A DNA stretch of 64,000 nucleotides from a virus, in the IMG/VR virus record IMGVR_UViG_3300034102_002101, positions 32,001 through 96,000 of that record; one strand, written 5' to 3'. The position numbers and the translations under genes are program-made. Below, piece after piece: positions 48,228-63,982 of this stretch (position 1 is its first letter; each line of letters starts with the position of its first letter). Below the pieces are notes generated by a model. The model did no database searches and was not told the origin of the DNA. It saw only the letters and a program-made list of their open reading frames with translations.

Positions 48228-50252
48228 ATGAATAAATATGGGAAGACACTAAATTTAAAGAATGTAAAAGCGGATATAATAGATACCGACCCGTTTTCCT
48301 CATATTTTGTCGTTTCGGAATTACCTAATATATTAACGTCAGGAAAAAATGGATTTTCGATAAACGGATCGAATTTACTGAAAGTTGGTTCTGAGGTGTA
48401 TATAGAGGTATTGAACGTAAATGGTTCAAACATATACGTTGAAGTGGCAAAAAATTCATCCAAGGTATCGTATAAGGAAGGTTCTAGTATAGTATACTCA
48501 ATACAAATATACGCCGATACCCCAGTTGGTGTCGGTATTATATATCTAGTTGGTACGGATACTTATGGGAAATTAGTAAAGTGGAAGAAAAATATAGAGA
48601 TAAATCCATCTATACAAAACAAGTCGAAGGTTAGATTTTATAATAAACCATCGATACAAGTTACTCCGTTCATAAATGTAACATCAGAAACAGATGTTAT
48701 TGAGACAAATATAAATGGAACATTTAAAGGAATACCAGTTAAGCCTATGGCTGGATATCCTATTAGCTACATAGACCAAGGTAGGGAAGAGTATGAATAT
48801 ATCATAGATATTACTTCTGGTGGGAGTCTCACCAGTGATATGGTCGGAAGAACAATAACGTTGAATGGGAATGATTACATAATACAAGAGGTAATAAACT
48901 CATCTAAATTAAAAATTGCTTACCCAATAACAAAAAATGGAAAAATATCTAGTGATTCTGGTGACTTAAGTATCGAGTATTACCCATATAATAATCCAAC
49001 AACGATATCTAGCAACGCATTTAAAAAGATAGGTACTGCCGAAATATTATTCAGAAACATAGAAACATTTACTGGTAAAATTTATAGATATAAAATATAT
49101 AGATCCAGTATAAATGCACCATACGATTCTGAATGTATATCTACAGGAATTTTTTATGCTACCGAGCATATATATGATTCAGAGACGCCGTATAGACACC
49201 AAAGCGTTCTTGGTAAAATATTAAACTCCGAGTTTTTAGATCAACATTGGTTTGTCAGTAATCCGTCTACTGATCTATCACACTCACCAGACAAGATGAT
49301 AGATTCATTCGAGACTAATGGATTCGAAAACTCGACAAGAAAATCCGACTACATTATTGTAAAGTCCGGTGTAAGTGGTAGTGTTGATTATGTTCCATAT
49401 GATAATGTTACTTATATGGATAGATCTAGTGATGTATACAATTCAAATTTTATTAGGTTATATAAAAATATCGAATATATATTTTCCGCCGACGTAATAA
49501 AAACTAGTAACACGCACGATACTTCTGGTATAGAATTCTATCTAAAGAGTTCTTTCAGTAACGCAATGAACAATAAAATTTGCGATTCTACTGGTTTGAA
49601 ATTATTCGAATTAAGTGATAATAAAACTGGTACGATATACTATGGAAAAGTTAATGGATCATTTATATTAGAGGAGGATTGTTATGGTACGTTAGTTATA
49701 TATCCATACAGGTCCAATTACGTATTATCTAATATTAGCATAAAACCATATACCGATTATTCATATGGACCGGACATATTTTCTATCCGAGTTCCATTTG
49801 ACGTTAGAGCTAAGAACGAAGGAAATAAAATAACCTGTGAGTTACTGGATGTTGATAATAAGTTAGTAATCGGTGAATTATCTACGATACAATATTTTGA
49901 TCCATATGGAGTAACGTATCCGTTTAACGTAATCAAAGATAACGCCGAATTAATACTAGACTTAGCCGATATAGAAATGGAGATGGGCGTGTTATCTGGC
50001 AGTTTATATAGTACCAGCCAATCGTTAATATCGTTGTCCTCCGAATTTTATTCTACTTCAGAAAGCTTCGAAAGTAGATTCATACAATTAAGCGAGTCTG
50101 TTTCCCGTATTAGTGGATCTACTGTCAGTGGGTCTTTTGCTATAGCAACTACGACAACCCTCGGATCGGTGTCAGTAGGAAATGGATTGAAAATAAACGT
50201 GAATGGTTCACTTTCACTCGACTATGCCGCGATTACTTGGGGAGGAGTTTAA
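48228..50252 (+). CDS. Putative virion structural protein
   Basis: Late motif upstream; C-terminal IATTTTLGSVSVGNGLKINVNGSL fibre-like repeat. Confidence 0.55.
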   Translation: MNKYGKTLNLKNVKADIIDTDPFSSYFVVSELPNILTSGKNGFSINGSNLLKVGSEVYIEVLNVNGSNIYVEVAKNSSKVSYKEGSSIVYSIQIYADTPVGVGIIYLVGTDTYGKLVKWKKNIEINPSIQNKSKVRFYNKPSIQVTPFINVTSETDVIETNINGTFKGIPVKPMAGYPISYIDQGREEYEYIIDITSGGSLTSDMVGRTITLNGNDYIIQEVINSSKLKIAYPITKNGKISSDSGDLSIEYYPYNNPTTISSNAFKKIGTAEILFRNIETFTGKIYRYKIYRSSINAPYDSECISTGIFYATEHIYDSETPYRHQSVLGKILNSEFLDQHWFVSNPSTDLSHSPDKMIDSFETNGFENSTRKSDYIIVKSGVSGSVDYVPYDNVTYMDRSSDVYNSNFIRLYKNIEYIFSADVIKTSNTHDTSGIEFYLKSSFSNAMNNKICDSTGLKLFELSDNKTGTIYYGKVNGSFILEEDCYGTLVIYPYRSNYVLSNISIKPYTDYSYGPDIFSIRVPFDVRAKNEGNKITCELLDVDNKLVIGELSTIQYFDPYGVTYPFNVIKDNAELILDLADIEMEMGVLSGSLYSTSQSLISLSSEFYSTSESFESRFIQLSESVSRISGSTVSGSFAIATTTTLGSVSVGNGLKINVNGSLSLDYAAITWGGV

Positions 50253-51508
50253 ATCCTCTTCCAATTATAGAAATCATCGTTATTTATTAACTTATTTCTA
50301 TAATCTTCTAATTTACTTATGTGTATCTTGAATATATCGTATTCAAAATCACCAACTTCTCCGGAATCAGATAATATCTGAGATAAGTTTCTGATGAAAT
50401 CAAATTGATCGTGTCTGGTTAATTGTCTCGCATCGAAACTGATAATTATATCGGTCGTCAATAGACCGAGCGTTTCTTCCATAATCTTGTCTGATAGATT
50501 GAATATAGTATTTGGTTGTTCGTTCTTGATGTACTCTTTTGATATCTTGGAATTAGTTAAGTGCATTTGGTCACACCATGGCTCCAGAAGTGCCAATAGT
50601 TGAGCGTTACAATGATTTATATTCAAACCTATGTCGTAGCGTGGATGTGTGATTGGTTTCATTAAATCATCATGTAGAACGTCAGTATGCCATTTTCTCC
50701 ACCAATCTCTGAATTTAATATTTCTTAGTTTCGTGTATTCTTCTGAATCCTTTGGTTTGTACCATTTAGATCCATCCGGTAAATCAACCACTCTTTCTAT
50801 TTCGAGTCTACCTTTGAACCTAGAACCTCTGCAAGTCATATGATAGACAAAAGAATCTCTCGATTGAATTATTCGTAAGTTGTTCAATACGAACCGATTA
50901 AAAATATCCGAATCCTCCAATTCCATTGGCGCGAACAATTTTTTATCATGTCCTCCTATTTTTTTGAAGTCTGATACGTGCATTCCCCATGGAGCGAATA
51001 TACCTTCTGTCGTCTTGTTTTTATACTCGATTTCACTTATCTCAACAAACTGATCGAATTCTTTCTTTTTAAATTCTTCTGGCTCTAATCCGAGATTTTT
51101 TGTCATTTTTTCGATTCCTGATGGGTGGAGATTTGGTTCTATCCTCGTCGCAGACACCACAATTCCAACTTCCATATATTTCAACATATTCCTAATATAA
51201 TTTGGTGATGCTATCATGTCAGCATGAAATATACTAAACACTTCCTTCGTTGCTAATTCGGCTCCTACATCGTATAAAACAGTATGTCCCTTCCTTTCCG
51301 GTCCCTCGTTTCTATAAATTATAACATTCTCGTCTAACTTCTTTGTCTCATTCATCCATTCCCAAGTTCCATCGGTAGATGCATCATCCAGCAGAATTAT
51401 CTCATGTTTCTCTGCTACATTATCACGTATACTGTTATACGCCGATTTTAAATATTTTAGATTATTCCTACTAGGGATGACGATTGAAATTATTGTGTGT
51501 TTATCCAT
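50249..51508 (-). CDS. GT2 glycosyltransferase
   Basis: ISIVIPSRN, LLDDASTDGT, FHADM, GGHD...EDSD. Confidence 0.9.
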   Translation of the reverse strand: MDKHTIISIVIPSRNNLKYLKSAYNSIRDNVAEKHEIILLDDASTDGTWEWMNETKKLDENVIIYRNEGPERKGHTVLYDVGAELATKEVFSIFHADMIASPNYIRNMLKYMEVGIVVSATRIEPNLHPSGIEKMTKNLGLEPEEFKKKEFDQFVEISEIEYKNKTTEGIFAPWGMHVSDFKKIGGHDKKLFAPMELEDSDIFNRFVLNNLRIIQSRDSFVYHMTCRGSRFKGRLEIERVVDLPDGSKWYKPKDSEEYTKLRNIKFRDWWRKWHTDVLHDDLMKPITHPRYDIGLNINHCNAQLLALLEPWCDQMHLTNSKISKEYIKNEQPNTIFNLSDKIMEETLGLLTTDIIISFDARQLTRHDQFDFIRNLSQILSDSGEVGDFEYDIFKIHISKLEDYRNKLINNDDFYNWKRI

Positions 51509-53407: not shown

Positions 53408-53920
53408 TTACTTAATTTCGGCGATCAATATATCGTCTTCTTCTATTCCACGCTCATATGAAATAGAATACTCAGGATTAATTTCCAATACTTTGGATAT
53501 CAATTGTTCCAATGTAGTTGTAAAGTGACCGTTCTTATATAGTCGAATATCATCAATATAAATTATATGATTTTTTATATGGTGATTTTTTATAGCTTCC
53601 AATTCAAAAATAATCGGATCTTCGACCACACCATTTCCAGTATCTCCACCGGAAAAATGACCATCCAACCAAAACGTTATGGGTTCGTTTATTTCTTCTA
53701 TTGCCCCATATAGGCAATTAGCAGCATCACCTTTTAGAATTGATACTCTGATATCTCCACGAAACCTATCAACACAGATATCAGAAAACTTATCCGTCAA
53801 TTCTATGGATATGACGTTATTAAATCCAGAATCCAATGCTTGTTGGATTCCGTCACCCATAAAGCATCCGGTTTCAACGAACACGTTGTTAACCTTCTTA
53901 AAAGGCGTTGGTTTAGGCAT
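53408..53920 (-). CDS. Class I SAM methyltransferase-like protein
   Basis: FVETGCFMGDG, SIE, FWLDGH, IDD. Confidence 0.65.
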   Translation of the reverse strand: MPKPTPFKKVNNVFVETGCFMGDGIQQALDSGFNNVISIELTDKFSDICVDRFRGDIRVSILKGDAANCLYGAIEEINEPITFWLDGHFSGGDTGNGVVEDPIIFELEAIKNHHIKNHIIYIDDIRLYKNGHFTTTLEQLISKVLEINPEYSISYERGIEEDDILIAEIK

Positions 53921-53921
53921 A

Positions 53922-54560
53922 TTAGTTTATCTTTCTTGCCATTATATCACCTTCACCGAATGGATGTCCATCAGCAGCATAAAATTCAAATTCAAATCCA
54001 TTATCAGTCAAGAACTTCTCGATTGATTCTTTGGATGAATGTCCTTTATAATATGCAACTTGTGCGGCTTCTAGGTGAATATATTTTACATTCTTGATGA
54101 TCTGTTCAAAACCTTCAAGTACAGCTAGTTCATGTCCCTGTACATCCATCCATACAACTAATGATGTTGTGTCTAATTGTGGATTTTCTGACATAAATGC
54201 ATTTACTGTAGTCGCATCAACTTCTATTTTGCTCTTATCTTGACTACCAAACGGAACATGGATTGGTTCCAGTATTGATGAGCATCCAATATTCCCATCA
54301 GTTACCCAAAAATCAACTTTTCCTACATAATTGCTAAGTGCTAAATTATGGACTTTTATATTTGTATATCTGCGGCTCTTGTCTTCACAGATATTATACT
54401 GATTTGGTGTTGGTTCAAATGCTGCAATTTCACATCCACGCCAAATAGCGTCAAATTCTTCTGACTGGTCTAAGTCTCTGGAACCAATATCCAATATTAG
54501 CGATGGGACGAATGCTGGTTCGTATTTTTGTATGTAATTTATAAATTTTGATATAAGCAT
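53922..54560 (-). CDS. FkbM-family methyltransferase
   Basis: ILDIGS, AFEP, NLALSN, WMDVQGHELAVLEG. Confidence 0.9.
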   Translation of the reverse strand: MLISKFINYIQKYEPAFVPSLILDIGSRDLDQSEEFDAIWRGCEIAAFEPTPNQYNICEDKSRRYTNIKVHNLALSNYVGKVDFWVTDGNIGCSSILEPIHVPFGSQDKSKIEVDATTVNAFMSENPQLDTTSLVVWMDVQGHELAVLEGFEQIIKNVKYIHLEAAQVAYYKGHSSKESIEKFLTDNGFEFEFYAADGHPFGEGDIMARKIN

Positions 54561-54565
54561 ATTTG

Positions 54566-55180
54566 TTATCCTAAGTATGTTGATTTGTGATATTCGTAAT
54601 GTTCGTTTGTTAAATTATACTTTTGCCAATAAAAGTCAATATTATTTTCTGGTAATTTATTAATACAATAATCGAAGTATTCTTTCGATTCTTCGAAAGA
54701 CACTATATTCGTTCCGTGTTTCTTATTATAATTATTTAGTAGTATTCGCTCGGCAAATTCTCCATTATGTTCATCTATTGTCCAGAAATCTATTAGATCG
54801 TCTGTTTTTCCATACATCAGATAGTCAACCATATAACCATCTACGTGCCATGTGTAAAATATTATCTTACCCGTATACATTTCTTCAAGTATACTTGCGA
54901 ATTCCTCTATTTTAGGTATAGAAAAATCAGTTCTGATCTTTAATGAAAATTCATATCCCATTAATTTAGCAAGAGCCAATCCACATAAAGTAGTATTAGC
55001 TTGTCTATTTATATTTCCTACTCCACCGTCAGCGACATCTTGACATTGGTATATATTAATTATATTATCGTAGTTATAATCATTGGTAAATATTATATGG
55101 TGTGCCTTTGTATAATTTGTTACTAAATTATACAAATTTCCTTTCACTGGTCCTTGTATGACTACTGCGGATTTATTCAA
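54566..55180 (-). CDS. WavE-like polysaccharide biosynthesis protein
   Basis: AVVIQGP, NINRQ..TT..GL, LKIRTD. Confidence 0.65.
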   Translation of the reverse strand: MNKSAVVIQGPVKGNLYNLVTNYTKAHHIIFTNDYNYDNIINIYQCQDVADGGVGNINRQANTTLCGLALAKLMGYEFSLKIRTDFSIPKIEEFASILEEMYTGKIIFYTWHVDGYMVDYLMYGKTDDLIDFWTIDEHNGEFAERILLNNYNKKHGTNIVSFEESKEYFDYCINKLPENNIDFYWQKYNLTNEHYEYHKSTYLG

Positions 55181-56384
55181 CTTTTAATCCCCACTTTTTA
55201 ATAGCCGCTTGATATTCGATCCCATAATCCTTATCTATAGATTGGCGCATTGCCTTGGTTCCAGCCAAAGTGCCGAGTGGATGGGAGCTTAATGCGCCAC
55301 CAACATTCGCCATCCAGTCAGAGTGTCCAACTGTTTTTATTATGTATTCAATCAAACCAGGATGCATTCCGCAACTCAAAGCAGCAACGCTATTCTGTTT
55401 AGTTAGTGTATCTATTGACTTTAATGTATTTTCCGCATCATCCAAATAACCACCGATCATACCTGCATGTAGAGTATCGCAACCAGACATAGATACAATT
55501 TTAAATAGTAGATTTTGTGATATGTGATAATCGTGAGTCGGGTGAGTCAGTAGACGATCACCGCTCTTCTGATAATGTAATAAAATCGGTAAGTCTAATT
55601 GGCGTATTGATTTGTATATACCAAACCCACAGTGGAAATTAGTATGTACTCCATTTATACCGTTCTGTTCATGTAGCTTTACTATTCTGTCTAGAAGGAA
55701 CGGGGAGTCCGCATTAATAGATACACAATAAAATACATTAGATTTCTGGCTTCTGATATAATTCATCACCAAGTCAGTTCTCTTGTATACATCACAATGT
55801 TTCGGATTGCTCAATATTTCGTCTTCTTTTATGAAGTTACACCCACCATCAATTAATTGCTTAACTAAATCTAAATGACGTTCTGGGGATAGTCCTATCT
55901 TTGGTTTAACTATCCCACCGAACAATGGTTTTCTGCTATCTACGTTACATATCTTACGCATACCAGATAGACCAATCTTTGGTCCGAGCAATACCTTTTC
56001 CATGTTAGTGGTGAATGTTATATCATTCAAATAGCATTTCTTAATTATATCTATATCCATCTGCCCACCCATACATTGAACCAATAATTGAGAAATTCCA
56101 TCGGTAGCGAAATCTATATTATTCTCCGGAAATGCGATAAACACTATTCCTTCTGTTTTTCCCTTTAATTCATCTTCATCAGCAAGAATTAAACAACTAT
56201 GATCGTCTATTAGTTCCTGCGTTTCAAATTCAGATCTAGCGGATGGATTACCTATCGATTGACCGATTGCCAAATTCCATGCCGCTTCTCTTAAAGTTGA
56301 TGATGACTTTAAGTAGTACTCACAAATGTAATGTGTATCTTTTAATGTTCCGGTATTTATGTTTTTAAAAATATTGTAATTCAT
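55173..56384 (-). CDS. RuBisCO-like protein (form IV, RLP)
   Basis: GGIVKPKIGL, FIKEDE (carbamylation-site motif), LHYQKSG, DTLHAG, SCGMHPG, NVGGALSSHP.G..AG.KAMRQ; carboxylase residues E60, N123, R295 and K334 appear substituted. Confidence 0.9.
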   Translation of the reverse strand: MNYNIFKNINTGTLKDTHYICEYYLKSSSTLREAAWNLAIGQSIGNPSARSEFETQELIDDHSCLILADEDELKGKTEGIVFIAFPENNIDFATDGISQLLVQCMGGQMDIDIIKKCYLNDITFTTNMEKVLLGPKIGLSGMRKICNVDSRKPLFGGIVKPKIGLSPERHLDLVKQLIDGGCNFIKEDEILSNPKHCDVYKRTDLVMNYIRSQKSNVFYCVSINADSPFLLDRIVKLHEQNGINGVHTNFHCGFGIYKSIRQLDLPILLHYQKSGDRLLTHPTHDYHISQNLLFKIVSMSGCDTLHAGMIGGYLDDAENTLKSIDTLTKQNSVAALSCGMHPGLIEYIIKTVGHSDWMANVGGALSSHPLGTLAGTKAMRQSIDKDYGIEYQAAIKKWGLKVE

Positions 56385-56385
56385 A

Positions 56386-56706
56386 TTATACTTCGTATTT
56401 ATCTCCGACGATTGATGGGATCTTTACTACTATTAATTTAGAGTCTTCTACTGGAGTCGCAAATACTACCTCATTTGGGTGAAGAATAAATACTTGACCA
56501 GCCAAAATCGTTTCACTGTTTATTATCATTTTCCCCTCGACTAGTAAATTTATTTCTGTTGCTATCTTGTGATAATGTGGGGTTATTACCTCGTCCTTAT
56601 GGTGGATTTTATAGCAAACTTCCGCTTTATCGGTTTTGAATGCTGTTGGTAAAAAATCACCAACAAACCAATTTCCCTTCATTTCATTTAAATTAAGTAT
56701 TGTCAT
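56386..56706 (-). CDS. Small cupin-domain protein
   Basis: WFVGDF.P, HYHKIATEINLLVEG. Confidence 0.8.
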   Translation of the reverse strand: MTILNLNEMKGNWFVGDFLPTAFKTDKAEVCYKIHHKDEVITPHYHKIATEINLLVEGKMIINSETILAGQVFILHPNEVVFATPVEDSKLIVVKIPSIVGDKYEV

Positions 56707-56708
56707 TT

Positions 56709-57419
56709 TTATAGATTTCTTAGAGCTTTATATGATTCGTAATCCTCGGGAGTTCCTATTGGATAATGGAGGTTAAATTGAAACGGCATTAACTTCTTAC
56801 CACATGCTATCAAATTATTGAACGTTTCTGACAAGTAATATTCCCCATTAACTGTTTTTCCACTGGCAATCAATTCTTCTGTTGATTTTACGAATAAAAT
56901 GCCAGACTTCCAGTAATGAAAACCGTTGGTTGCTGTGTTGCTTATTACTTGCTTCTCTCGCAACTCAATTATTTCGTTCTTTTCGTTTACTTTTACGTAG
57001 CTATTTTTTGGACTAGTGGAATGGAATGTTCCTAAGCATCCATCTAAATTATTGGTTTCACAATAACTTAAAAATAGTTCCATGTTTAGATCTTCTATTA
57101 TCTGGTCACAGTTCGTTACTATTAATGGAACATCGTTATTTACATATTCGCGTGCAAGCAACGCTGAACATGCTGGTCCAGATGGAACATAATCAATCTC
57201 GATAACATTTACGCCCAATAGACACAGTTGATCTTTGGTAATTTGATTCTTATTAATTATAATTGTATAATCAGCATTTTCATATCTCAAATTCCATAAT
57301 ACTGCATGTATCATTGATGTGCGCCCTATCGGAAGAAGAGCCTTTGGTACTGTATATCCAGCATCAAAAAACCTTTGACTTTTTCCTGCCATTGGTATCA
57401 CTATGTTTATTTTACTCAT
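56709..57419 (-). CDS. Sugar-phosphate nucleotidyltransferase
   Basis: IVIPMAGKSQRF...PKALL, NCDQ, VNGEYY, IGTPED. Confidence 0.85.
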   Translation of the reverse strand: MSKINIVIPMAGKSQRFFDAGYTVPKALLPIGRTSMIHAVLWNLRYENADYTIIINKNQITKDQLCLLGVNVIEIDYVPSGPACSALLAREYVNNDVPLIVTNCDQIIEDLNMELFLSYCETNNLDGCLGTFHSTSPKNSYVKVNEKNEIIELREKQVISNTATNGFHYWKSGILFVKSTEELIASGKTVNGEYYLSETFNNLIACGKKLMPFQFNLHYPIGTPEDYESYKALRNL

Positions 57420-57850
57420 TTTTTAAATTTTTCTATGTAATCTGAACATATACCTATACTTCCAGTTGGTATATTAAACCCATGAAGCTCCGGTAATACA
57501 CATATTCCCCCACTCGAATCTAATCCGGTATAATACCAAGAATGTCCATAACTAGTAATAACTACTGGTTCTGTTGTATGATAAAATACGTGGTATCGTT
57601 GTTCTGATAGTATCTTAAATGCTTCTAAATTTTTCGCATGAATCCATATGTTTTCTCCCCAACCATCTAGCGTAGATTGACTTATTCCGTAGTCTGGTTT
57701 GTCATGACCTAACCAGAAAGTTCTGTTTTTATACCACACATCGATCTCGACAATATATCCTTTGGATATCGCCGAGCTTATGTATATTGGCTCGTTCTCC
57801 CAATTTTCGAGTCTACCGTTAATGTTTCCTCTATGTGAAATTAAGATCAT
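57416..57850 (-). CDS. Glycerophosphodiester phosphodiesterase-like (short) protein
   Basis: ISHRGN, EN.P, VEIDVW, LGHD, GICSD; ATG 57850 preferred as start. Confidence 0.7.
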   Translation of the reverse strand: MILISHRGNINGRLENWENEPIYISSAISKGYIVEIDVWYKNRTFWLGHDKPDYGISQSTLDGWGENIWIHAKNLEAFKILSEQRYHVFYHTTEPVVITSYGHSWYYTGLDSSGGICVLPELHGFNIPTGSIGICSDYIEKFKK

Positions 57851-58461
57851 TTTACTTTCTGGTAGAACGCATCTCCCCAACCATGGTTGGTGTCGTGCAT
57901 ATGTGTGCGTTTAAATCCGAATTGACTCAAATATTTATCGATACCATCCACAGTGACGCACCCCTCATATAATTCCTCGTAATTGACCTCGGTATATACA
58001 TAATCAATATCGTTAGTCAGTAGTTTTTCCGCCCCACACAAAACTTTATATTCTGCTCCTTGAACGTCTATAAAAAGAGCGTTAAAGTTTCCTTCTTCGT
58101 TTACATAAAATTCATCGAGGGTAACGCAGTCTACTTCTATCTGTTTCTCATAATTTATGTGTGGATAATAATTTTTGTGATTCTTGAGATTTAAGATAGA
58201 CGAAGATGAACCATCATTATTTGATACGTTAAATTTTATCTTACCATTAAAGTCAGAAACAGCATGGTTATAACCATCTTGATTAGGATACTGCGATAAT
58301 CTATCCATCAATCTTTTATATATCTCTGGGTTAGCTTCATGCCAAATAACAAATTCGGCACCCATCTGCTGGTAAAAGTCACGCTCCTGTCCTTCATGCG
58401 CTCCGACATGAATGACTCCACGCAGTTTTCCATGTAATTCCTTTACTAGATTTATTTCCAT
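57847..58461 (-). CDS. FkbM-family methyltransferase
   Basis: VIHVGAHEGQE, EAN, IDVQGAEYKVL.G, YTEVN. Confidence 0.9.
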   Translation of the reverse strand: MEINLVKELHGKLRGVIHVGAHEGQERDFYQQMGAEFVIWHEANPEIYKRLMDRLSQYPNQDGYNHAVSDFNGKIKFNVSNNDGSSSSILNLKNHKNYYPHINYEKQIEVDCVTLDEFYVNEEGNFNALFIDVQGAEYKVLCGAEKLLTNDIDYVYTEVNYEELYEGCVTVDGIDKYLSQFGFKRTHMHDTNHGWGDAFYQKVK

Positions 58462-58464
58462 AAT

Positions 58465-59133
58465 TTATAATGTTCCACGATCACTAAAATCAATATTATA
58501 TTCTTGTTGTAGTAAAGTCAACTCTTTTCCATATTCACTCACGTTCCATTTGCCTTTATTTATTGCGGTGGCTATATAGGGCCAAACATTGGAATCGTAA
58601 TGGAATAATCCGCGTTTATCCCCTACCCATTCTTTTGGTAAAAATTTACTTTCATATTCTCCTATAGAACATTGGGATAAGAAACCTTCTTGCCTAATCG
58701 AGTCTATTTGATATTTTTCGTAAAATGATATGAACTTATCTATGCTATGTACCGCAGCTTGCATACAATATTCCGTTCCTCCGCTTTTTATCAATTTAAC
58801 GAAACCAGTCTTATTAGAATTTATTTCTTCTATCGCCGTATGAATTGCGTTTATATCAATGTCGGAGTATAAAATAAAATCTTCTTGTGAGTATATGAAA
58901 TATTCATATCCATTCGCTTTAAGAAATTCAAGTACATGCAACCATTGGTTTGAATATGGTTCGTTGTTATCATACTTGAAACAGTAATGTCTACCAAAAT
59001 CATTGATATCTTCATTGCATAACCAGAATGATGGTAATTGATTAGCATGTTTATCGAGTCTATCGAAATACGGTTTCCACAAATCTTTGCAATTTGTGTG
59101 TGAATATGTAATTATACAAAGTTTATTATCCAT
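58465..59133 (-). CDS. Putative glycosyltransferase-like protein
   Basis: YSQEDF motif and cluster context. Confidence 0.45.
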   Translation of the reverse strand: MDNKLCIITYSHTNCKDLWKPYFDRLDKHANQLPSFWLCNEDINDFGRHYCFKYDNNEPYSNQWLHVLEFLKANGYEYFIYSQEDFILYSDIDINAIHTAIEEINSNKTGFVKLIKSGGTEYCMQAAVHSIDKFISFYEKYQIDSIRQEGFLSQCSIGEYESKFLPKEWVGDKRGLFHYDSNVWPYIATAINKGKWNVSEYGKELTLLQQEYNIDFSDRGTL

Positions 59134-59865
59134 TTAATTTATCTCCATTTCGCAGATTTGTTTATTGTAAAAACTTCCTTCTATCATGTATGGTCTAGTT
59201 TTTCTCCCATGCACAAATTCATCTAGCGCACTACCTACGTCAATGTATTGATTTCGTGGGTTGAGTTTCCATAATAAGTATATTATGGCTTCACTTAGTG
59301 GTCCGACTGATATGAAAAAGGTTTGTCCTGATGTATTATTAAAGGACTCTCCTAAAATTTGCATTATTTGTCCCTTATTTTCTTCCCACACGTTAACACA
59401 ATCATTTCCGAATGACATATAATCACTTACATTAAACGGATATTTTTTATTTTCTCCGTTTTCATTAGCGATTATAGTAATGTCTTTCTTTAGCGTTGTC
59501 AGTCTATCGATAAATCTATTGTAGTTTCCATTTATCCATAGATTCGCAAACGTTACATATTCTCTATCTTGCTTTATGTTATTCAATAGCCATTGTTTAT
59601 CTTCGGTATTGGATGAGTCACATGATATTGCATAATAATAATATGGATCAACACAACTTAAAGATTCACGTAGATCTTTTCCCAATTTTGTAATTCCTGT
59701 TGGTGCAGACCATCTATCAACATCTGTTGCTTGGCTTCCTCCACCAATTGGGATTCCTTTCATTAAACATATTTCACCATCCGCATATCTAGCATGTGCG
59801 AATGGCAAATTAGATTCTATTCTATTCCACGCATTATCGAAATCCTCTTTAAATAACTTTTTCAT
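59134..59865 (-). CDS. Putative GT-D-fold-like glycosyltransferase
   Basis: ARYADGE near the N-terminus and IDVGSALD near the C-terminus. Confidence 0.5.
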   Translation of the reverse strand: MKKLFKEDFDNAWNRIESNLPFAHARYADGEICLMKGIPIGGGSQATDVDRWSAPTGITKLGKDLRESLSCVDPYYYYAISCDSSNTEDKQWLLNNIKQDREYVTFANLWINGNYNRFIDRLTTLKKDITIIANENGENKKYPFNVSDYMSFGNDCVNVWEENKGQIMQILGESFNNTSGQTFFISVGPLSEAIIYLLWKLNPRNQYIDVGSALDEFVHGRKTRPYMIEGSFYNKQICEMEIN

Positions 59866-60847
59866 TCTTTAATATTTCTAGTATTTTCTGTGCGCTATTA
59901 CCATCACCATAAGGACAATGATTCATCATTGGTGTAGGATTCTTTATGTGCTCATAAAACAAATCCTTTAGGTTTTCTATGGTTGTTAGAAAGCTGGTAT
60001 TTCCAACCGATTCTGGTCTTTCTGTTGCATCTCTACACACTAATATCTTCTTATTTAGAAATGAACATTCCTCCTGCAATCCACCACTATCAGAAATAAC
60101 CAGCGAACAAGACAACAATTCGTTTATCATTTCGTCATATGGTAACGGTTCAATAACATTTACATTACAAAGTATTTCTCTGTGTTTTCTTACATTTGGG
60201 TTTGGGTGGATAGGAAATACAAAATTATAATCCAAAAATTCTGTTGCTAGTTCATTTATTTTCTTGAACCACTCGTCGATCTTATCATGATTTTCTCTTC
60301 TGTGTAAGGTAATTAAAATCTTTTTCGCCAATGTTGTTCTTTCCCGCATATTGACCAATCCATCTAATCCAGTATTACCAACAACATATATAGATTCATA
60401 TTTTATATTTTCTCTTAGTAAATTTATTATATTATCCGTTGTTGGGCATAGATGTATATCTGCTAATTTTGTTATTAAGCATCGGTTCATTTCTTCTGGA
60501 TACGGATTGTTGAAATCTCCGCTTCTGAGCCCAGCTTCTAAATGTATTACTTTTATTTTTCTGTGATATGCCGTCAATGCCATACCAAATGCGGAAGAAG
60601 TATCTCCCTGAACTAATACGTGGGTTATGCCATCAAATATATAACCACGATTTAAGCACGATTGTATCACTGAATCTAACCTATTATCACCGTCAGATAT
60701 CTCCAACTTATAATCAAAATCTACACCGAATAGTAGAGTCGTATGCTGTCCCGTAAAAACTGTTTTATATGACTCTCTAGGTAAAATCTTCAATAGTGAA
60801 GACACCTTTATCATCTCGGGGCGTGTGCCTATTGCTATAAGTATCAT
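59849..60847 (-). CDS. wecB: UDP-N-acetylglucosamine 2-epimerase (non-hydrolysing)
   Basis: GTRPEMIK, TGQH, VQGDT, HLEAGLRS, PEEMNR, TLHRREN, SDSGGLQEE, TERPE, YGDG. Confidence 0.95.
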   Translation of the reverse strand: MILIAIGTRPEMIKVSSLLKILPRESYKTVFTGQHTTLLFGVDFDYKLEISDGDNRLDSVIQSCLNRGYIFDGITHVLVQGDTSSAFGMALTAYHRKIKVIHLEAGLRSGDFNNPYPEEMNRCLITKLADIHLCPTTDNIINLLRENIKYESIYVVGNTGLDGLVNMRERTTLAKKILITLHRRENHDKIDEWFKKINELATEFLDYNFVFPIHPNPNVRKHREILCNVNVIEPLPYDEMINELLSCSLVISDSGGLQEECSFLNKKILVCRDATERPESVGNTSFLTTIENLKDLFYEHIKNPTPMMNHCPYGDGNSAQKILEILKNEKVI

Positions 60848-61623
60848 ACGTTTTCCTTTATCAACTTCCAACCAGCAATTCTCTGATCTACGAATGCTTG
60901 GTTCATCAAATGTTTAAATGGTACCCCTTCCGGTGATCTTTGGTTGGTTTCCCACATTGAATTATTATCGCACGCATACTTGATATGTGCTATATTGCAC
61001 CACATGTCTTTATTATCAATTGGGTGTGGAGGAACGTATGTTTTTATGTTACCATATTTTTGTAACATATGACTAAAATGCATATCCTCTTTACATATAA
61101 AATATTTTGGATCTGGTAATTCTCTCCAATACATACTTAACCAATCTCGCCTAAAAAACCAGGAATGTCCTACGAAATCTACCTCGGTAATTTCATTGGA
61201 TTGTCCACCATCTACCCAACCGAAACGTGTATAATGCTCGTAATATGAACTTCGTTCTGGTGGGTTTGGTTGTGAGTATAATAGACCTACTCCACCCATT
61301 AAACCATTCTTAATGTTTATAGAATTTATACAGTTTTCCAACCACAGTGGACCTGGAACCATATCATCGTCAAATACACAGACATATTCGGTTCTAGAAT
61401 TTAGTGCATATGCAAATCTCGCCCATACTCCGAGATTTTCATTTGATATGGCGCTGCTTACTTTTTCTGTGATACCGTAGTTAACATCACCTTTATCCGG
61501 ATAATTGTACCACAACATTATTTTTTTTGGTACTATACTTCCATTGTTCAATGCGTTAACTTGTTCATCTAGACATTCCCCGCGACGGAACCCATTCAAA
61601 ATTACGGTTACTTCTTTGTTCAT
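60844..61623 (-). CDS. GT-A glycosyltransferase
   Basis: VTVILN, WARF, VFDDD, EDMHFS. Confidence 0.7.
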   Translation of the reverse strand: MNKEVTVILNGFRRGECLDEQVNALNNGSIVPKKIMLWYNYPDKGDVNYGITEKVSSAISNENLGVWARFAYALNSRTEYVCVFDDDMVPGPLWLENCINSINIKNGLMGGVGLLYSQPNPPERSSYYEHYTRFGWVDGGQSNEITEVDFVGHSWFFRRDWLSMYWRELPDPKYFICKEDMHFSHMLQKYGNIKTYVPPHPIDNKDMWCNIAHIKYACDNNSMWETNQRSPEGVPFKHLMNQAFVDQRIAGWKLIKENV

Positions 61624-62639
61624 AAATTATTTAATATAGTAAACATCTTTTCCTTCCAAATGTCAATACTAAAATAATTTTTATAATTTGTTTTTGCGTT
61701 TGTGCTGCATTCCTCGTAGAATCCAACATCATCCACTAACCTCTTGGCCAATTTCCTCGCAGTTTTTATATCTTCAACATCAACAGATAACTCCGGAAAT
61801 ATTAATTTTTGAGTATCCATCTTATAATTTCCTATACATGGTATTCCAAAGTATCCACAATTCTTCGAAAAAGTGCCAGCAGCCACCGTTGGCATCAAAT
61901 GTATCGCATATCTATATGTTGATAATTCTCTCATCCATTCTAACCACGACATTCTTGGTAAGTGATTTAAATCATCTATAAGACCTTCATCTTCTCTTTT
62001 TGAGTGAGAATCCATTACATGCTTAGAACTCTCGTAAAACTCGTCGGAAACCATATAGGAATTGAAACCACCATAAAACTTACTAAAATTTCCACCGATC
62101 ATTACTTTATTATAAGTTCTTGAGTCAGGTATAATATCTGTTAACAGATCTTCTATCATCAAACTCGATATCACATTTACCGGTTTATTTGGAAACATTC
62201 CTTCGTAATATGGTTTATCTGATTCATTGTGGCAAAATATGGAATCAAACGAATGAACGGTGTTATACCAATTAAATTGATCTCTCACAGTATAATCCAT
62301 TGGCCATGAACTTGGTCCTTCCTGTATAAAATGTATTTTTTTGTTATTTTGTTTTCTTAATTGTCCAACAAAATCGAATTCCAATAATTTAGATACTGGA
62401 TTAATTCCATCAATTACCTTACATCCTTCTGCACTAAGAAATACCCGCCCTTTCGGTATTATTACGAAAACATGATCGTAATTGATTATATTAATCAACT
62501 GGTTAAATTGGTAATGTGTTGAGTCTAACGCTTGCTGCCATGCAATTTCCGTTCGTGCGTTATTGAATTTTTCTGGATATTTTCCACTAAATGGCGACTC
62601 GGTAATAAATGCAACTTTTCCAAAGTTATAGGATTTCAT
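61620..62639 (-). CDS. Putative GT-B glycosyltransferase
   Basis: C-terminal AAGTF..CGYFGIPCIG pattern of GT-B donor-binding domains; cluster context. Confidence 0.5.
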   Translation of the reverse strand: MKSYNFGKVAFITESPFSGKYPEKFNNARTEIAWQQALDSTHYQFNQLINIINYDHVFVIIPKGRVFLSAEGCKVIDGINPVSKLLEFDFVGQLRKQNNKKIHFIQEGPSSWPMDYTVRDQFNWYNTVHSFDSIFCHNESDKPYYEGMFPNKPVNVISSLMIEDLLTDIIPDSRTYNKVMIGGNFSKFYGGFNSYMVSDEFYESSKHVMDSHSKREDEGLIDDLNHLPRMSWLEWMRELSTYRYAIHLMPTVAAGTFSKNCGYFGIPCIGNYKMDTQKLIFPELSVDVEDIKTARKLAKRLVDDVGFYEECSTNAKTNYKNYFSIDIWKEKMFTILNNL

Positions 62640-62675: not shown

Positions 62676-62701
62676 AAAAAACCACCTTTTACGGTGGTTT
62701 T
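62676..62701 (-). terminator. Rho-independent terminator
   Basis: On the minus strand AACCACC-GTAAAA-GGTGGTT followed by a T-run, just after the 62711 stop. Confidence 0.75.
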
Positions 62702-62710
62702 GTTTTTGTA

Positions 62711-63280
62711 TTATTTTCTAACTATGTGTAGCCTATTACCAGCAGTTACTGAGTATATAGGTGGTTCTCCAATAATAGCGTCGAGTGAATGTCCCTCTAT
62801 CACGAAAGTAATGTCTCCGTTTTTATTTGTTTCCCTGCTCAATATTGCATATCCTTGTTTATGCAACCAAGTAAAGAATGTAGGTGTGGATCTGATAAAC
62901 GTATCAGATACTATCAATTTTCCTATTCTTGATGGTTGTATTGTTGGAATAGATGGAACTACTGGTTCTGGTGAGATTTCAATAATCTGTTCGGCTATAG
63001 TTTTCTCGACCACATTTTCAATTATCGGTTCTATCGCTGGAATTATCGCCGGTATTTGTTGTTCAATAATATCGTCTACCTTAACATCTAATAATGGTTC
63101 TTCTATAATAACCGGAATCGGCTCTGTCACTTCTTCAACCACGGATTCTTGTAATACCTGTGCTTCTACTTGCACTTCTTGTATTGCTTCCGTAACTGTT
63201 TCGGTTGATACGATGGGATCAATAGTTGGTTCAATTTCCTGTTCAGTTGTATTCTTTTTATATTTTGATGCTTTTGCCAT
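62711..63280 (-). CDS. Glu/Pro/Val/Ile-rich low-complexity protein
   Basis: Acidic EPV/I-rich N-terminal two thirds plus a small globular C-terminus; ATACTTATA motif on the minus strand at 63287-63295. Confidence 0.65.
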   Translation of the reverse strand: MAKASKYKKNTTEQEIEPTIDPIVSTETVTEAIQEVQVEAQVLQESVVEEVTEPIPVIIEEPLLDVKVDDIIEQQIPAIIPAIEPIIENVVEKTIAEQIIEISPEPVVPSIPTIQPSRIGKLIVSDTFIRSTPTFFTWLHKQGYAILSRETNKNGDITFVIEGHSLDAIIGEPPIYSVTAGNRLHIVRK

Positions 63281-63304
63281 AATGTTTATAAGTATTGCTA
63301 ACCT

Positions 63305-63982
63305 TTAATTGTGACCCATATTTTCTTTGTTGGAGAAATTCGTATTGTAGAACATGTTTTGGTTTTTTTGTCTATCTATAGTTTTTACATGTATCAATGA
63401 TAAATCTGGTTCTGGTGGTATTTCTGCTATTACCTTTGCCCCAACTATTACTTCATGTAATCTATTTTGCCAGAAGATTTCTAATTTGTTGCGGTAGATG
63501 CGACATTGAAAATCCGGGAAATTTATATAATTCTTCCCAAGTATATCACTCACTCGCCACCCCCATTGCTTCACATCGGAATCAGTCATTCCATCGATAT
63601 AATTTAATCTAGGCACTCGCATTAATTCTACTTCCGGATTTAATTCTATAAAGTCATGAATATTTTCTAGTAGAGTTTCCGATAGTATTTCATCTCCGTC
63701 TATTAGAAATATCCAATCTCCGGAGCACGCACGCGATCCTATCGTTTTGTGTCTACCAAAATGATACTCTCTACCATCATATAATTGATGATTTACTACT
63801 TTTGCTTGGTACTTATCTTTTGCCAAGCTTATGCTTGATATAGTTGAATCATCGGTTGACATATCATCCAGTATAACAAATTGATCATTCGTTTTTTTAC
63901 AGAATTCACCGATTTGATCGAACAGCGGTAATAGATATTTTTCACCTTCGTTGTGTGTACAAATTAGGAATGATATTTTCAT
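63305..63982 (-). CDS. GT2 glycosyltransferase
   Basis: ISFLICTHNE, LDDMSTD, WIFLIDGDE, PDFQCRIYRN, LHE. Confidence 0.9.
   Translation of the reverse strand: MKISFLICTHNEGEKYLLPLFDQIGEFCKKTNDQFVILDDMSTDDSTISSISLAKDKYQAKVVNHQLYDGREYHFGRHKTIGSRACSGDWIFLIDGDEILSETLLENIHDFIELNPEVELMRVPRLNYIDGMTDSDVKQWGWRVSDILGKNYINFPDFQCRIYRNKLEIFWQNRLHEVIVGAKVIAEIPPEPDLSLIHVKTIDRQKNQNMFYNTNFSNKENMGHN

What the first reader, a model, noticed from the sequence alone, without database searches (positions are those of the whole stretch)
54566..57850. RuBisCO-like protein embedded in a phage nucleotide-sugar module (phosphodiesterase-like, nucleotidyltransferase, cupin, RLP, WavE-like)
Seen: five tightly coupled genes (gaps of 2 nt or less, or overlaps) inside a glycosyltransferase/methyltransferase cluster. 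The RLP keeps KPK, the KEDE Mg/carbamate motif, H294 and the phosphate-binding loops. By eye it has E60>Q (AIGQSIG), N123>Q (MGGQ), R295>K (HYQKSG) and K334>Y (HAGMIGGYL). Established: form IV RLPs do not fix CO2. Characterised ones act as enolases/isomerases in methionine salvage or as decarboxylase/transcarboxylases in catabolism of sugar acids, including branched ones. Inference: this RLP works biosynthetically, using enediolate chemistry on a sugar phosphate to make an unusual (possibly branched) monomer. The adjacent nucleotidyltransferase would activate it for a phage-made glycan. I know of no characterised RLP with this role.
Basis: partly seen in the sequence, partly recalled or inferred. 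Interest (0 to 1): 0.82.

Follow-up and report, generated by a model that had tools for sequence, protein, structure and literature searches.

The report
Phage RuBisCO-like sugar-activation cassette
A large lake-water phage carries a RuBisCO relative that cannot fix CO2 and travels with, or is fused to, a sugar-activating enzyme, a small metal-binding cupin and a miniature phosphodiesterase, so it probably reshapes a sugar phosphate for a surface glycan, a job never tested for this enzyme family.

Summary
The five genes are real, on the minus strand, and overlap or lie at most 2 nt apart. They encode a mini-GDPD (144 aa), a nucleotidyltransferase, a 106-aa cupin, a 403-aa RuBisCO-like protein (RLP) and a GT-A-fold WavE-like protein, flanked by FkbM methyltransferases.

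One residue claim is wrong. H294 is replaced by Gln; the retained His aligns with H292.

The RLP belongs to a separate clade, which is probably the published but uncharacterised phage "form IV-like" group. Among 116 related loci, the nucleotidyltransferase lies beside it in 111, the cupin in 83 and the mini-GDPD in 88. Single polypeptides exist that join RLP+NTP, RLP+NTP+cupin and PDE+RLP.

In 44 cyanophage-type loci the same NTP, cupin and PDE occur with an RpiB sugar-phosphate isomerase fused to the NTP and with no RLP. No RLP locus has RpiB. This points to enediolate isomerase-type chemistry that feeds nucleotide activation.

In Legionella the RLP-NTP pair lies beside a LicD phosphotransferase.

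The substrate and product are unknown, and "branched" is unsupported. This scan has met the same cassette before on other DNA. I found no paper that describes it.

The parts
57416..57850 (-). Miniature glycerophosphodiester-phosphodiesterase-like enzyme (144 aa from ATG 57850; the TTG ORF runs to 57880)
   Evidence: There is no Pfam hit. It matches phrog_34507 at 3e-28. In 32 sequences H6, R7, G8, E18, N19, E35, D37, H49, H71, K73 and H91 are invariant. The profile hits GDPD 7e0v at E 7e-5 over the HRG..EN..ExD..H part. The AlphaFold model has pLDDT 97.4. VIA-align ranks 22 GDPD/PLD-type barrels on top, with Z 10.4 to 7.7, rmsd about 3.1 to 3.9 A and 132 to 139 of 144 residues aligned over the whole barrel.
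56709..57419 (-). Nucleotidyltransferase (236 aa), the hub of the cassette
   Evidence: PF00483 scores 36.4 bits against a cut-off of 21.2. It matches phrog_3980 at 2.2e-51. The profile hits PDB 4evw 'nucleoside-diphosphate-sugar pyrophosphorylase' at 8e-35 over its full length, followed by GDP-Man PPase and RmlA near 1e-10. It is 37% identical to the NTP half of the cyanophage B23 HAD_2-NTP fusion (E 5e-52).
56386..56706 (-). Small metal-type cupin (106 aa)
   Evidence: Pfam gives only a weak AraC_binding hit at 0.081. It matches phrog_24762 at 1.9e-29. In 27 sequences H44, H46, E51 (cupin motif 1, HxHx4E) and E79 are invariant. The profile hits the cupins YxaG at 1.9e-6 and 7zvm, a 113-aa 'mannose-6-phosphate isomerase', at 1.6e-4.
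55173..56384 (-). RuBisCO-like protein (403 aa) of the cassette clade
   Evidence: PF00016 scores 106.8 bits. The best NCBIfam model is type III RuBisCO at 141 bits against a cut-off of 497. The signature is G41 Q42 N46 G107 Q108 K160 K162 K186 D188 E189 H270 Q272 K273 D276 H306 Y313 S337 C338 G339 G362 G363. It sits in a separate clade with SH-aLRT 99 to 100.
54566..55180 (-). WavE-like protein with a GT-A fold (204 aa), the probable transferase
   Evidence: PF07507 scores 18.8 bits, below the cut-off of 27. The model has pLDDT 80.5. VIA-align gives Z 11.0 to 9.2 to many GT-A glycosyltransferases and nucleotidyltransferases, and Foldseek gives E about 1e-4. Homologues occur in 13 of 80 viral loci.
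53922..54560 (-). FkbM-family methyltransferase
   Evidence: PF05050 at 4.7e-17 and TIGR01444 at 1.7e-19.
57847..58461 (-). FkbM-family methyltransferase
   Evidence: PF05050 at 3.1e-20 and TIGR01444 at 5.8e-23.
58465..61623 (-). Glycan genes that travel with the cassette: two unknowns (222 and 243 aa), a UDP-GlcNAc 2-epimerase (59849-60871) and a GT2-like gene (60844-61623)
   Evidence: Epimerase_2 at 5.6e-69 and Glycos_transf_2 at 3.6e-5. Homologues of these genes lie in 9 to 12 of the 80 viral RLP loci.

Best explanation
The five genes are a biosynthetic cassette that makes and uses a nucleotide-activated sugar, or sugar-phosphate-like, unit for a glycan.

Proposed steps, all inferred. The RLP binds a phosphorylated keto-sugar on its Mg2+-carbamate centre and forms an enediolate. 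It re-protonates this intermediate, so it acts as an isomerase, epimerase or enolase and not as a carboxylase. The metal cupin carries out a second isomerisation or tautomerisation. The nucleotidyltransferase couples the product to an NMP. A GT-A-fold transferase (WavE-like here, DUF7796-like or LicD elsewhere) installs the unit. The miniature GDPD barrel acts on a phosphodiester made along the way. The FkbM enzymes methylate the unit.

What is shown: gene identities, folds, conserved residues, linkage, fusions and the RpiB swap. What is inferred: every chemical step, the substrate and the product.
For: 1. Linkage. In tblastn of the window's genes against 80 viral and 36 genome loci that encode an RLP relative, the NTP is found in 79 and 32, the cupin in 72 and 11, and the PDE in 71 and 17. 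All four genes are present in 62 and 9 loci, and they lie on one strand in 68 of those 71. The 80 viral loci are the best of 384 matches.

2. Fusions. P0121 is RLP+NTP. P0270 and P0271 are RLP+NTP+cupin. P0155 is PDE+RLP. L078 has NTP+cupin and L014 has PDE+DUF7796.

3. Swap. In 44 viral loci found with a cyanophage NTP-RpiB fusion, the NTP is present in 43, the cupin in 42, the PDE in 37 and the RLP in 0. The RpiB domain is in 0 of the 116 RLP loci. The cupin and the PDE keep their invariant residues in that variant.

4. Active site. The Mg-carbamate and enolisation residues are kept. E60, N123, H294 and K334 are lost.

5. Context. Across 114 loci, the neighbours include DUF7796-like proteins (47 loci), GDP-mannose dehydratase or epimerase (44), CmcI-like methyltransferases (33) and FkbM (24). 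WavE precedes the cassette in L084. LicD (1e-42) lies beside the RLP-NTP pair in L114, and its cluster is present in four Legionellaceae loci.

6. No curated RLP function fits. MtnW models score 109 and 90 bits against cut-offs of 409 and 514, and OiaX scores 95 against 700.
Against: - No enzyme activity, product or phenotype is known for any member.
- The 44 RpiB loci are 79 to 92% identical to the query, so they are one lineage. The swap is therefore essentially one evolutionary event.
This weighs against simple equivalence of the two.
- Some RLP loci also carry a HAD_2-NTP fusion (L016, L062, L074, L086), so the number and order of steps are unclear.
- The NTP's closest characterised relatives take sugar 1-phosphates. 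LicD and a GDPD fold suggest transfer of an alcohol phosphate instead. These two readings are not reconciled.
- Only 80 of the 384 viral matches were examined.
- Some 'genome' loci are MAG contigs that could be misbinned phage.
Confidence: 0.6

Rival explanations
1. The RLP and cupin are a methionine-salvage or 5'-deoxynucleoside-salvage auxiliary module. The RLP would be a DK-MTP-1-P enolase or an MTRu-1-P isomerase. The cupin would be an acireductone-dioxygenase-like or sulfurylase-like enzyme. The phage would use them to recycle MTA.
For: The enzyme kinds (RLP, cupin, HAD and, in cyanophage loci, a class II aldolase) are those of the Bacillus MtnW/MtnD/MtnX/MtnB set and of the Rhodospirillum RLP-cupin shunt. 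That parallel is recalled and comes from no call. MtnW structures are among the PDB matches (2oej, 3e-36).
Against: MtnW equivalog models score 109.4 and 89.7 bits against cut-offs of 409 and 513.6. In the tree the clade lies apart from an MtnW-like representative, P0230, which scores 391 bits. The conserved partner is a nucleotidyltransferase, sometimes fused to the RLP. The surrounding genes are glycan genes. None of the annotated neighbours in the window's cluster or in the ten most frequent neighbour clusters is an MtnA- or MtnK-type gene, although I ran no dedicated search for them.
Confidence: 0.07
2. The cassette supplies an activated sugar for hypermodification of the phage's own DNA and not for a surface glycan.
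For: The window is a myovirus-like large phage, with baseplate wedge and tail fibre PHROG matches. Phages of that kind are known to glycosylate DNA (recalled, from no call).
Against: The cassette also lies in cellular genomes of cultured isolates: a complete Pelagibacter chromosome, Legionella type strains, Nonomuraea and Azospirillum. It sits next to LicD or WavE. In the window it is embedded among GT2, GtrB-like, UDP-GlcNAc 2-epimerase and FkbM genes.
Confidence: 0.07
3. The RLP is a catabolic decarboxylase or transcarboxylase of the OiaX/OiaC type, or an inactive remnant, and its linkage to the NTP is incidental.
For: OiaX is among the weak NCBIfam matches, at 95 bits.
Against: The OiaX cut-off is 700 bits. 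About 60 residues are invariant across 16 sequences that are 52 to 78% identical to the window's protein, and the reading frame is intact, so the protein is not decaying. The linkage holds in 111 of 116 loci and in fusions. The neighbour clusters that I annotated with Pfam, which include the ten found in most loci, contain no kinase, dehydrogenase or transporter.
Confidence: 0.04

Closest known systems
'Form IV-like' RuBisCO-related proteins of phages and Beckwithbacteria (Jaffe, Castelle, Dupont, Banfield 2019, PMC6389311; passages read)
   Same: Both are divergent RLPs on large Myoviridae-type phage contigs from IMG/VR and on CPR bacteria. Both lack carboxylation residues, and both branch outside the other RLPs. 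My tree gives the same picture.
   Different: In the passages I read, the paper leaves the function 'unclear' and gives no account of the NTP/cupin/PDE neighbours. I could not compare sequences directly, so identity of the two clades is likely but not shown.
Characterised form IV RLPs: MtnW/YkrW DK-MTP-1-P enolase and the OiaX/OiaC apiose-pathway enzymes (NCBIfam models)
   Same: The RuBisCO fold, the carbamylated-Lys/Mg centre and the expected enolisation chemistry on a keto-sugar phosphate.
   Different: The scores are far below every equivalog cut-off. The active-site signature differs (Q272, K273, Y313, C338). The context is glycan biosynthesis, not salvage or catabolism.
RpiB/LacAB sugar-phosphate isomerase fused to the same nucleotidyltransferase in cyanomyoviruses (SynMITS9220M01, Bellamy; L119, L120)
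   Same: It sits in the same cassette, with orthologous NTP, cupin and mini-GDPD. Its chemistry also goes through an enediol.
   Different: The fold is unrelated. It is fused to the NTP. So far it is seen in one cyanophage lineage only.
Nucleotide-activated precursor pathways that use an isomerase or reductase plus a nucleotidyltransferase (GDP/ADP-heptose GmhA-kinase-GmhB-NT; CDP-ribitol TarJ/TarI with LicD-family transfer); recalled, from no call
   Same: The logic is the same: reshape a pentose-phosphate-pathway sugar phosphate, activate it with an NTP, then transfer it. HAD, GHMP or PfkB kinases and LicD appear beside some cassettes.
   Different: None of those pathways uses a RuBisCO-fold enzyme, this cupin or a 144-aa GDPD barrel.

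Membership tests
RuBisCO large-subunit superfamily (PF00016) | Catalytic TIM-barrel domain above the Pfam gathering score | tested here: met
   106.8 bits against a cut-off of 30.1, over residues 140-384. The N-terminal domain PF02788 scores 19.4, just under its cut-off of 20.7.
RuBisCO large-subunit superfamily (PF00016) | K175/K177, the carbamate Lys K201, and the Mg ligands D203 and E204 | tested here: met
   K160, K162, K186, D188 and E189 align to them. They are invariant in 16 sequences and in all 38 clade members shown.
Bona fide RuBisCO (forms I to III) | Carboxylation and hydration residues E60, N123, H294 and K334, with T65 and R295 | tested here: not met
   The aligned residues are G41 (Q42 beside it), G107 (Q108 beside it), Q272, Y313, N46 and K273. 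TIGR03326 scores 141 bits against 497, and NF003252 scores 137 against 438.
MtnW/YkrW DK-MTP-1-P enolase | Score above the NCBIfam equivalog cut-off | tested here: not met
   NF007095 scores 109.4 against 409, and TIGR03332 scores 89.7 against 513.6.
OiaX 3-oxo-isoapionate-4-phosphate decarboxylase | Score above the NCBIfam equivalog cut-off | tested here: not met
   NF042437 scores 95.2 against 700.
'Form IV-like' phage/Beckwithbacteria clade (Jaffe 2019) | Groups with the published phage and Beckwithbacteria sequences, outside all other RLPs | tested here: inconclusive
   In my own tree the 38 signature rows form one side of a branch with SH-aLRT 99, apart from the 79 other RuBisCO/RLP representatives.
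Glycerophosphodiester phosphodiesterase (GDPD) family, for the 144-aa protein | Catalytic HRG ... EN ... ExD ... H residues and the PLC-like phosphodiesterase barrel | tested here: met
   The residues are invariant. They align to GDPD 7e0v. The top 22 fold matches are GDPD/PLD-type, with Z 10.4 to 7.7.
Glycerophosphodiester phosphodiesterase (GDPD) family, for the 144-aa protein | Pfam GDPD model match | tested here: not met
   There is no Pfam hit even at E 5. The protein is also short: 144 aa against 217 to 328 residues for the matched GDPD chains. So it works like a GDPD, but I file it as a miniature relative and not as a member.
Cupin superfamily, for the 106-aa protein | Cupin motif 1 with metal ligands, HxH(x)4E(x)6G | tested here: met
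   H44, H46, E51 and G58 are invariant in 27 sequences. The profile hits solved cupins at 1.9e-6. The window protein has no Pfam cupin hit. The cyanophage orthologue hits Cupin_2 at 3.7e-5, below the cut-off.
Sugar-phosphate nucleotidyltransferase (PF00483) | Score above the Pfam gathering score | tested here: met
   36.4 bits against 21.2. The closest solved chain is 4evw at 8e-35. Specificity for NTP and substrate is not testable with these tools.
WavE (PF07507), for the 204-aa protein | Score above the Pfam gathering score | tested here: not met
   18.8 bits against 27. The fold is GT-A. True WavE proteins (1.4e-52 and 7e-22) lie beside other copies of the cassette.

The most novel reading that the evidence does not exclude
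This clade would be the first RuBisCO-superfamily enzyme that works in anabolism of a glycan precursor. It would do the job of a sugar-phosphate isomerase and be interchangeable with RpiB. Together with a metal cupin and a minimal GDPD barrel, it would define an undescribed nucleotide-activated (possibly phosphodiester-transferred) sugar donor pathway. Abundant aquatic phages, SAR11, CPR/DPANN organisms and some Legionella would use this pathway to alter cell-surface glycans. Because the clade branches outside all other RLPs, its chemistry could also bear on what the RuBisCO fold did before carboxylation.
Probability: 0.4. Interest if true: 0.82.

Novelty: new variant of a known kind. Interest (0 to 1): 0.7.

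Why it matters
Every characterised RuBisCO-like protein works in salvage or catabolism. A whole clade that is wired, and sometimes fused, to a nucleotidyltransferase inside glycan clusters would give the fold a biosynthetic role.

The clade has 384 viral matches in IMG/VR, and it also occurs in SAR11, Legionella, and CPR and DPANN genomes. Surface glycans decide phage adsorption, so the cassette may affect phage-host recognition in very abundant aquatic bacteria.

The question is directly testable. The proteins are small, and culturable carriers exist, namely Legionella type strains and cyanophages that carry the RpiB variant.

Tried and rejected
- **Cultured phages.** blastn of the 3.3-kb region and tblastn of the RLP against 50,697 deposited phage records found nothing. 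The RLP has no PHROG. Records near the window may have been left out of that collection.
- **Carbon fixation.** Rejected on the active-site residues.
- **WavE-like against cyanophage DUF7796.** BLASTP shows no similarity, so I do not call them the same family.
- **L112 'fusion'.** The 706-aa ORF had no Pfam hit and is a spurious frame in GC-rich DNA. I dropped it.
- **P0163.** This is an IF-2B plus bona fide RuBisCO fusion and is unrelated to this clade.
- **Own virus record (47% complete).** It has no RpiB, no HAD_2 and only one NTP_transferase.
- **Foldseek on the mini-GDPD.** No match at E <= 0.001; the best is GDPD 1v8e at 2.6e-3. VIA-align was needed.
- **Papers.** Searches found no paper on an RLP with a nucleotidyltransferase, cupin or LicD. 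The 'WavE' search returned only noise. bioRxiv 2025.11.05.686826 (passages read) does not treat phage RLPs. Supplementary files of Jaffe 2019 were closed and may show gene context.
- **RNA.** No RNA holder was listed for this stretch. Four lake-water DNA runs from four studies hold short, mostly letter-identical contig pieces of the stretch, which shows presence only.
- **Rows dropped.** 5 of 86 PDE ORFs had a frame error. P0151 and P0178 were left out of the tree as truncated.
- **Not run.** No complex-prediction job was run, and I make no claim that these proteins bind one another.

Full report
**What is there.** The window is bases 32001-96000 of a 120,666-bp IMG/VR virus record that CheckV rates 47% complete. 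PHROG matches to baseplate wedge and tail fibre proteins, an SbcC-like nuclease and a polymerase show a large myovirus-like phage.

From about 50 kb onward, a run of minus-strand genes forms a glycan cluster. The reported stretch holds five genes.
- 57416-57850: PDE-like, 144 aa. The ORF lister begins it at TTG 57880, but the homologues begin at MILISHRGN, which corresponds to ATG 57850.
- 56709-57419: NTP_transferase.
- 56386-56706: cupin.
- 55173-56384: RLP.
- 54566-55180: WavE-like.

The junctions are a 4-nt overlap, a 2-nt gap, a 1-nt gap and an 8-nt overlap. FkbM methyltransferases flank the five genes. A UDP-GlcNAc 2-epimerase, GT2-like genes and a GtrB-like gene lie nearby.

**The RLP.** PF00016 matches at 106.8 bits. 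Every curated NCBIfam model is far below its cut-off: type III 141 against 497, MtnW 109 against 409 and 90 against 514, OiaX 95 against 700.

I aligned the family profile to PDB 8dht and made a 120-sequence MAFFT alignment. Both give one signature.
- Kept: K175, K177, K201, D203, E204, H327, S379, G381, G403 and G404.
- Changed: E60 aligns with G41 (Q42 next to it). N123 aligns with G107 (Q108 next to it). H294 becomes Q272, R295 becomes K273, H298 becomes D276, K334 becomes Y313, G380 becomes C338 and T65 becomes N46.

The retained His is H292, and it varies between His and Phe in the family. The enolisation machinery survives, and the residues for CO2 addition, hydration and cleavage do not. 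This functional reading rests on established RuBisCO mechanism and not on a call.

In a quick IQ-TREE of 118 rows, the 38 signature-bearing sequences form one side of a branch with SH-aLRT 99. The other side holds 79 RuBisCO and RLP representatives. These include an MtnW-like row (P0230, 391 bits) and an OiaX-like row (P0215, 330 bits).

**Relatives and neighbours.** The protein has 2362 homologues at E <= 1e-3 in the word-indexed search. It matches 384 viral contigs, of which the best 80 were fetched. It also matches 36 loci in species-representative genomes. These include a complete Pelagibacter chromosome, Legionella type strains, Nonomuraea, Azospirillum, Patescibacteria and Woesearchaeota.

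tblastn of the window's genes gives these counts:

| Gene | Viral loci (of 80) | Genome loci (of 36) |
|---|---|---|
| NTP | 79 | 32 |
| Cupin | 72 | 11 |
| PDE | 71 | 17 |
| WavE-like | 13 | 0 |

All four core genes occur together in 62 viral and 9 genome loci, and on one strand in 68 of those 71. The order varies. NTP-cupin-RLP-PDE occurs 49 times, and the window's order, PDE-NTP-cupin-RLP, occurs 6 times.

De novo clustering of neighbours within 6 kb in 114 loci adds these families:
- a DUF7796-like protein of about 258 aa (47 loci);
- GDP-mannose dehydratase or epimerase (44);
- CmcI-like methyltransferases (33);
- FkbM (24);
- true WavE (8).

The window's wider module (epimerase, two unknowns, WavE-like, FkbM) recurs in about a dozen viral loci.

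**Fusions.** P0121 (667 aa) is RLP+NTP. P0270 and P0271 (813 and 817 aa) are RLP+NTP+cupin. P0155 is PDE+RLP, cut at a contig end. L078 has NTP+cupin and L014 has PDE+DUF7796. Each cassette partner is thus found on one polypeptide with the RLP or with another partner.

**The other proteins.**
- The 144-aa protein has no Pfam hit. It keeps the GDPD catalytic residues and folds with pLDDT 97.4. The model is a compact barrel whose 22 best structural matches are all GDPD/PLD-type, with Z 10.4 to 7.7 and about 137 of 144 residues aligned across the whole target barrel.
- The cupin keeps HxHx4E and E79 and matches solved cupins.
- The NTP is nearest to the uncharacterised 4evw (8e-35), and after that to sugar-1-phosphate enzymes.
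- The WavE-like protein has a GT-A fold.

**A parallel cassette without the RLP.** Cultured cyanomyoviruses carry the cupin (3 records) and the mini-GDPD (17 records), but not the RLP.

In SynMITS9220M01 the gene before the cupin is a 385-aa fusion of this NTP family (30% identity, 3e-33) with a LacAB_rpiB sugar-phosphate isomerase (4.1e-33). A DUF7796 protein, the mini-GDPD and a GHMP kinase follow the cupin. In B23 and S-PRM1 the NTP is fused to a HAD_2 domain and is followed by the mini-GDPD.

A scan with the NTP-RpiB fusion returned 44 viral loci. The NTP is in 43, the cupin in 42, the PDE in 37 and the RLP in 0. The RpiB domain is in none of the 116 RLP loci. The cupin and the PDE keep their invariant residues in these loci.

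I read this as non-orthologous displacement. The RLP and RpiB fill the same slot, and that slot is an enediol(ate)-type rearrangement of a sugar phosphate.

There are three caveats.
- The 44 loci are one lineage, 79 to 92% identical to the query.
- HAD_2-NTP fusions also occur together with the RLP (L016, L062, L074, L086).
- An earlier, untested note of this scan (e1-3323877) reports an operon that holds both an RLP and an RpiB-like gene.

**Cellular context.** In four Legionellaceae loci the RLP and NTP stand alone as a pair. Their divergent neighbour in L114 is a LicD-family phosphotransferase (1e-42), and its cluster is present in all four loci. In L084 a true WavE protein (1.4e-52) precedes PDE-NTP-cupin-RLP. 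LicD and a GDPD fold hint that the activated unit may be transferred as a phosphodiester. The NTP's relatives hint instead at a sugar 1-phosphate. I cannot decide between the two.

**Literature and earlier scan notes.** Jaffe et al. 2019 (PMC6389311, passages read) reported about 80 phage 'form IV-like' sequences plus Beckwithbacteria. They described them as an outgroup to the RLPs with function unclear. The GOS paper (PMC1821046, passages read) noted novel RuBisCO-homologue groups. Five searches found no paper on the cassette. This scan has met the same cassette on other DNA many times. Those notes agree with my reading, but they are not independent evidence.

**Occurrence.** Four lake-water DNA runs from four studies hold short, mostly letter-identical pieces of the stretch.

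**Verdict.** The biosynthetic reading is well supported by linkage, fusions and the RpiB swap. The chemistry, the substrate and the 'branched' idea remain inference.

Noticed in passing
L119:5835-6992, L120, and L124-L167: Cyanomyoviruses (SynMITS9220M01, Bellamy and 44 IMG/VR contigs) carry an NTP_transferase-RpiB fusion next to the same cupin and mini-GDPD. It lies beside what looks like a GDP-heptose-type set: GHMP kinase, HAD, a second cupin and a second NTP.
   Followed up: partly
L122:4634-6007, L123:3299-4684, L016:4771-6135, L086:731-2101: HAD_2 (beta-phosphoglucomutase-like) domains are fused N-terminally to this nucleotidyltransferase family. This occurs in cyanophages B23 and S-PRM1, and also in some RLP loci, including a complete Pelagibacter chromosome.
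   Followed up: partly
L114:6663-7514 (minus strand), and L115-L117: A LicD-family phosphotransferase is the divergent neighbour of the RLP-NTP pair in L114 (Pfam 1e-42), and its homology cluster is present in all four Legionellaceae loci.
   Followed up: partly
P0163 (726 aa): One protein combines an IF-2B/e2b2-type domain (ribose-1,5-bisphosphate isomerase family) with a full RuBisCO large subunit (RuBisCO_large, 263 bits).
   Followed up: no
window 62694-63308 (+) and 62711-63280 (-): Two long ORFs overlap on opposite strands inside the glycan cluster. The minus-strand one (189 aa) has an acidic, Val/Glu/Ile/Pro-rich first half and no family match.
   Followed up: no
window 50249-51508 (-) and about 50000: A 419-aa protein has a GtrB-like (O-antigen conversion) N-terminus (phrog_841, 7.9e-11). 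It marks the point where gene orientation, GC skew and AT skew all switch sign.
   Followed up: no
window 58465-59133, 59134-59865, 61620-62639, 53408-53920 (all minus strand): Four glycan-cluster proteins have no Pfam or PHROG match. The first two travel with the cassette in 11 of the 80 viral loci each, the third in 3 and the fourth in 1. The 243-aa one has an 'ARYADGE' stretch.
   Followed up: no
L007:2017-3480: In one viral locus the cupin is fused to a methyltransferase with a C-methyltransferase C-terminal domain (Methyltransf_14, 7e-4, weak).
   Followed up: no
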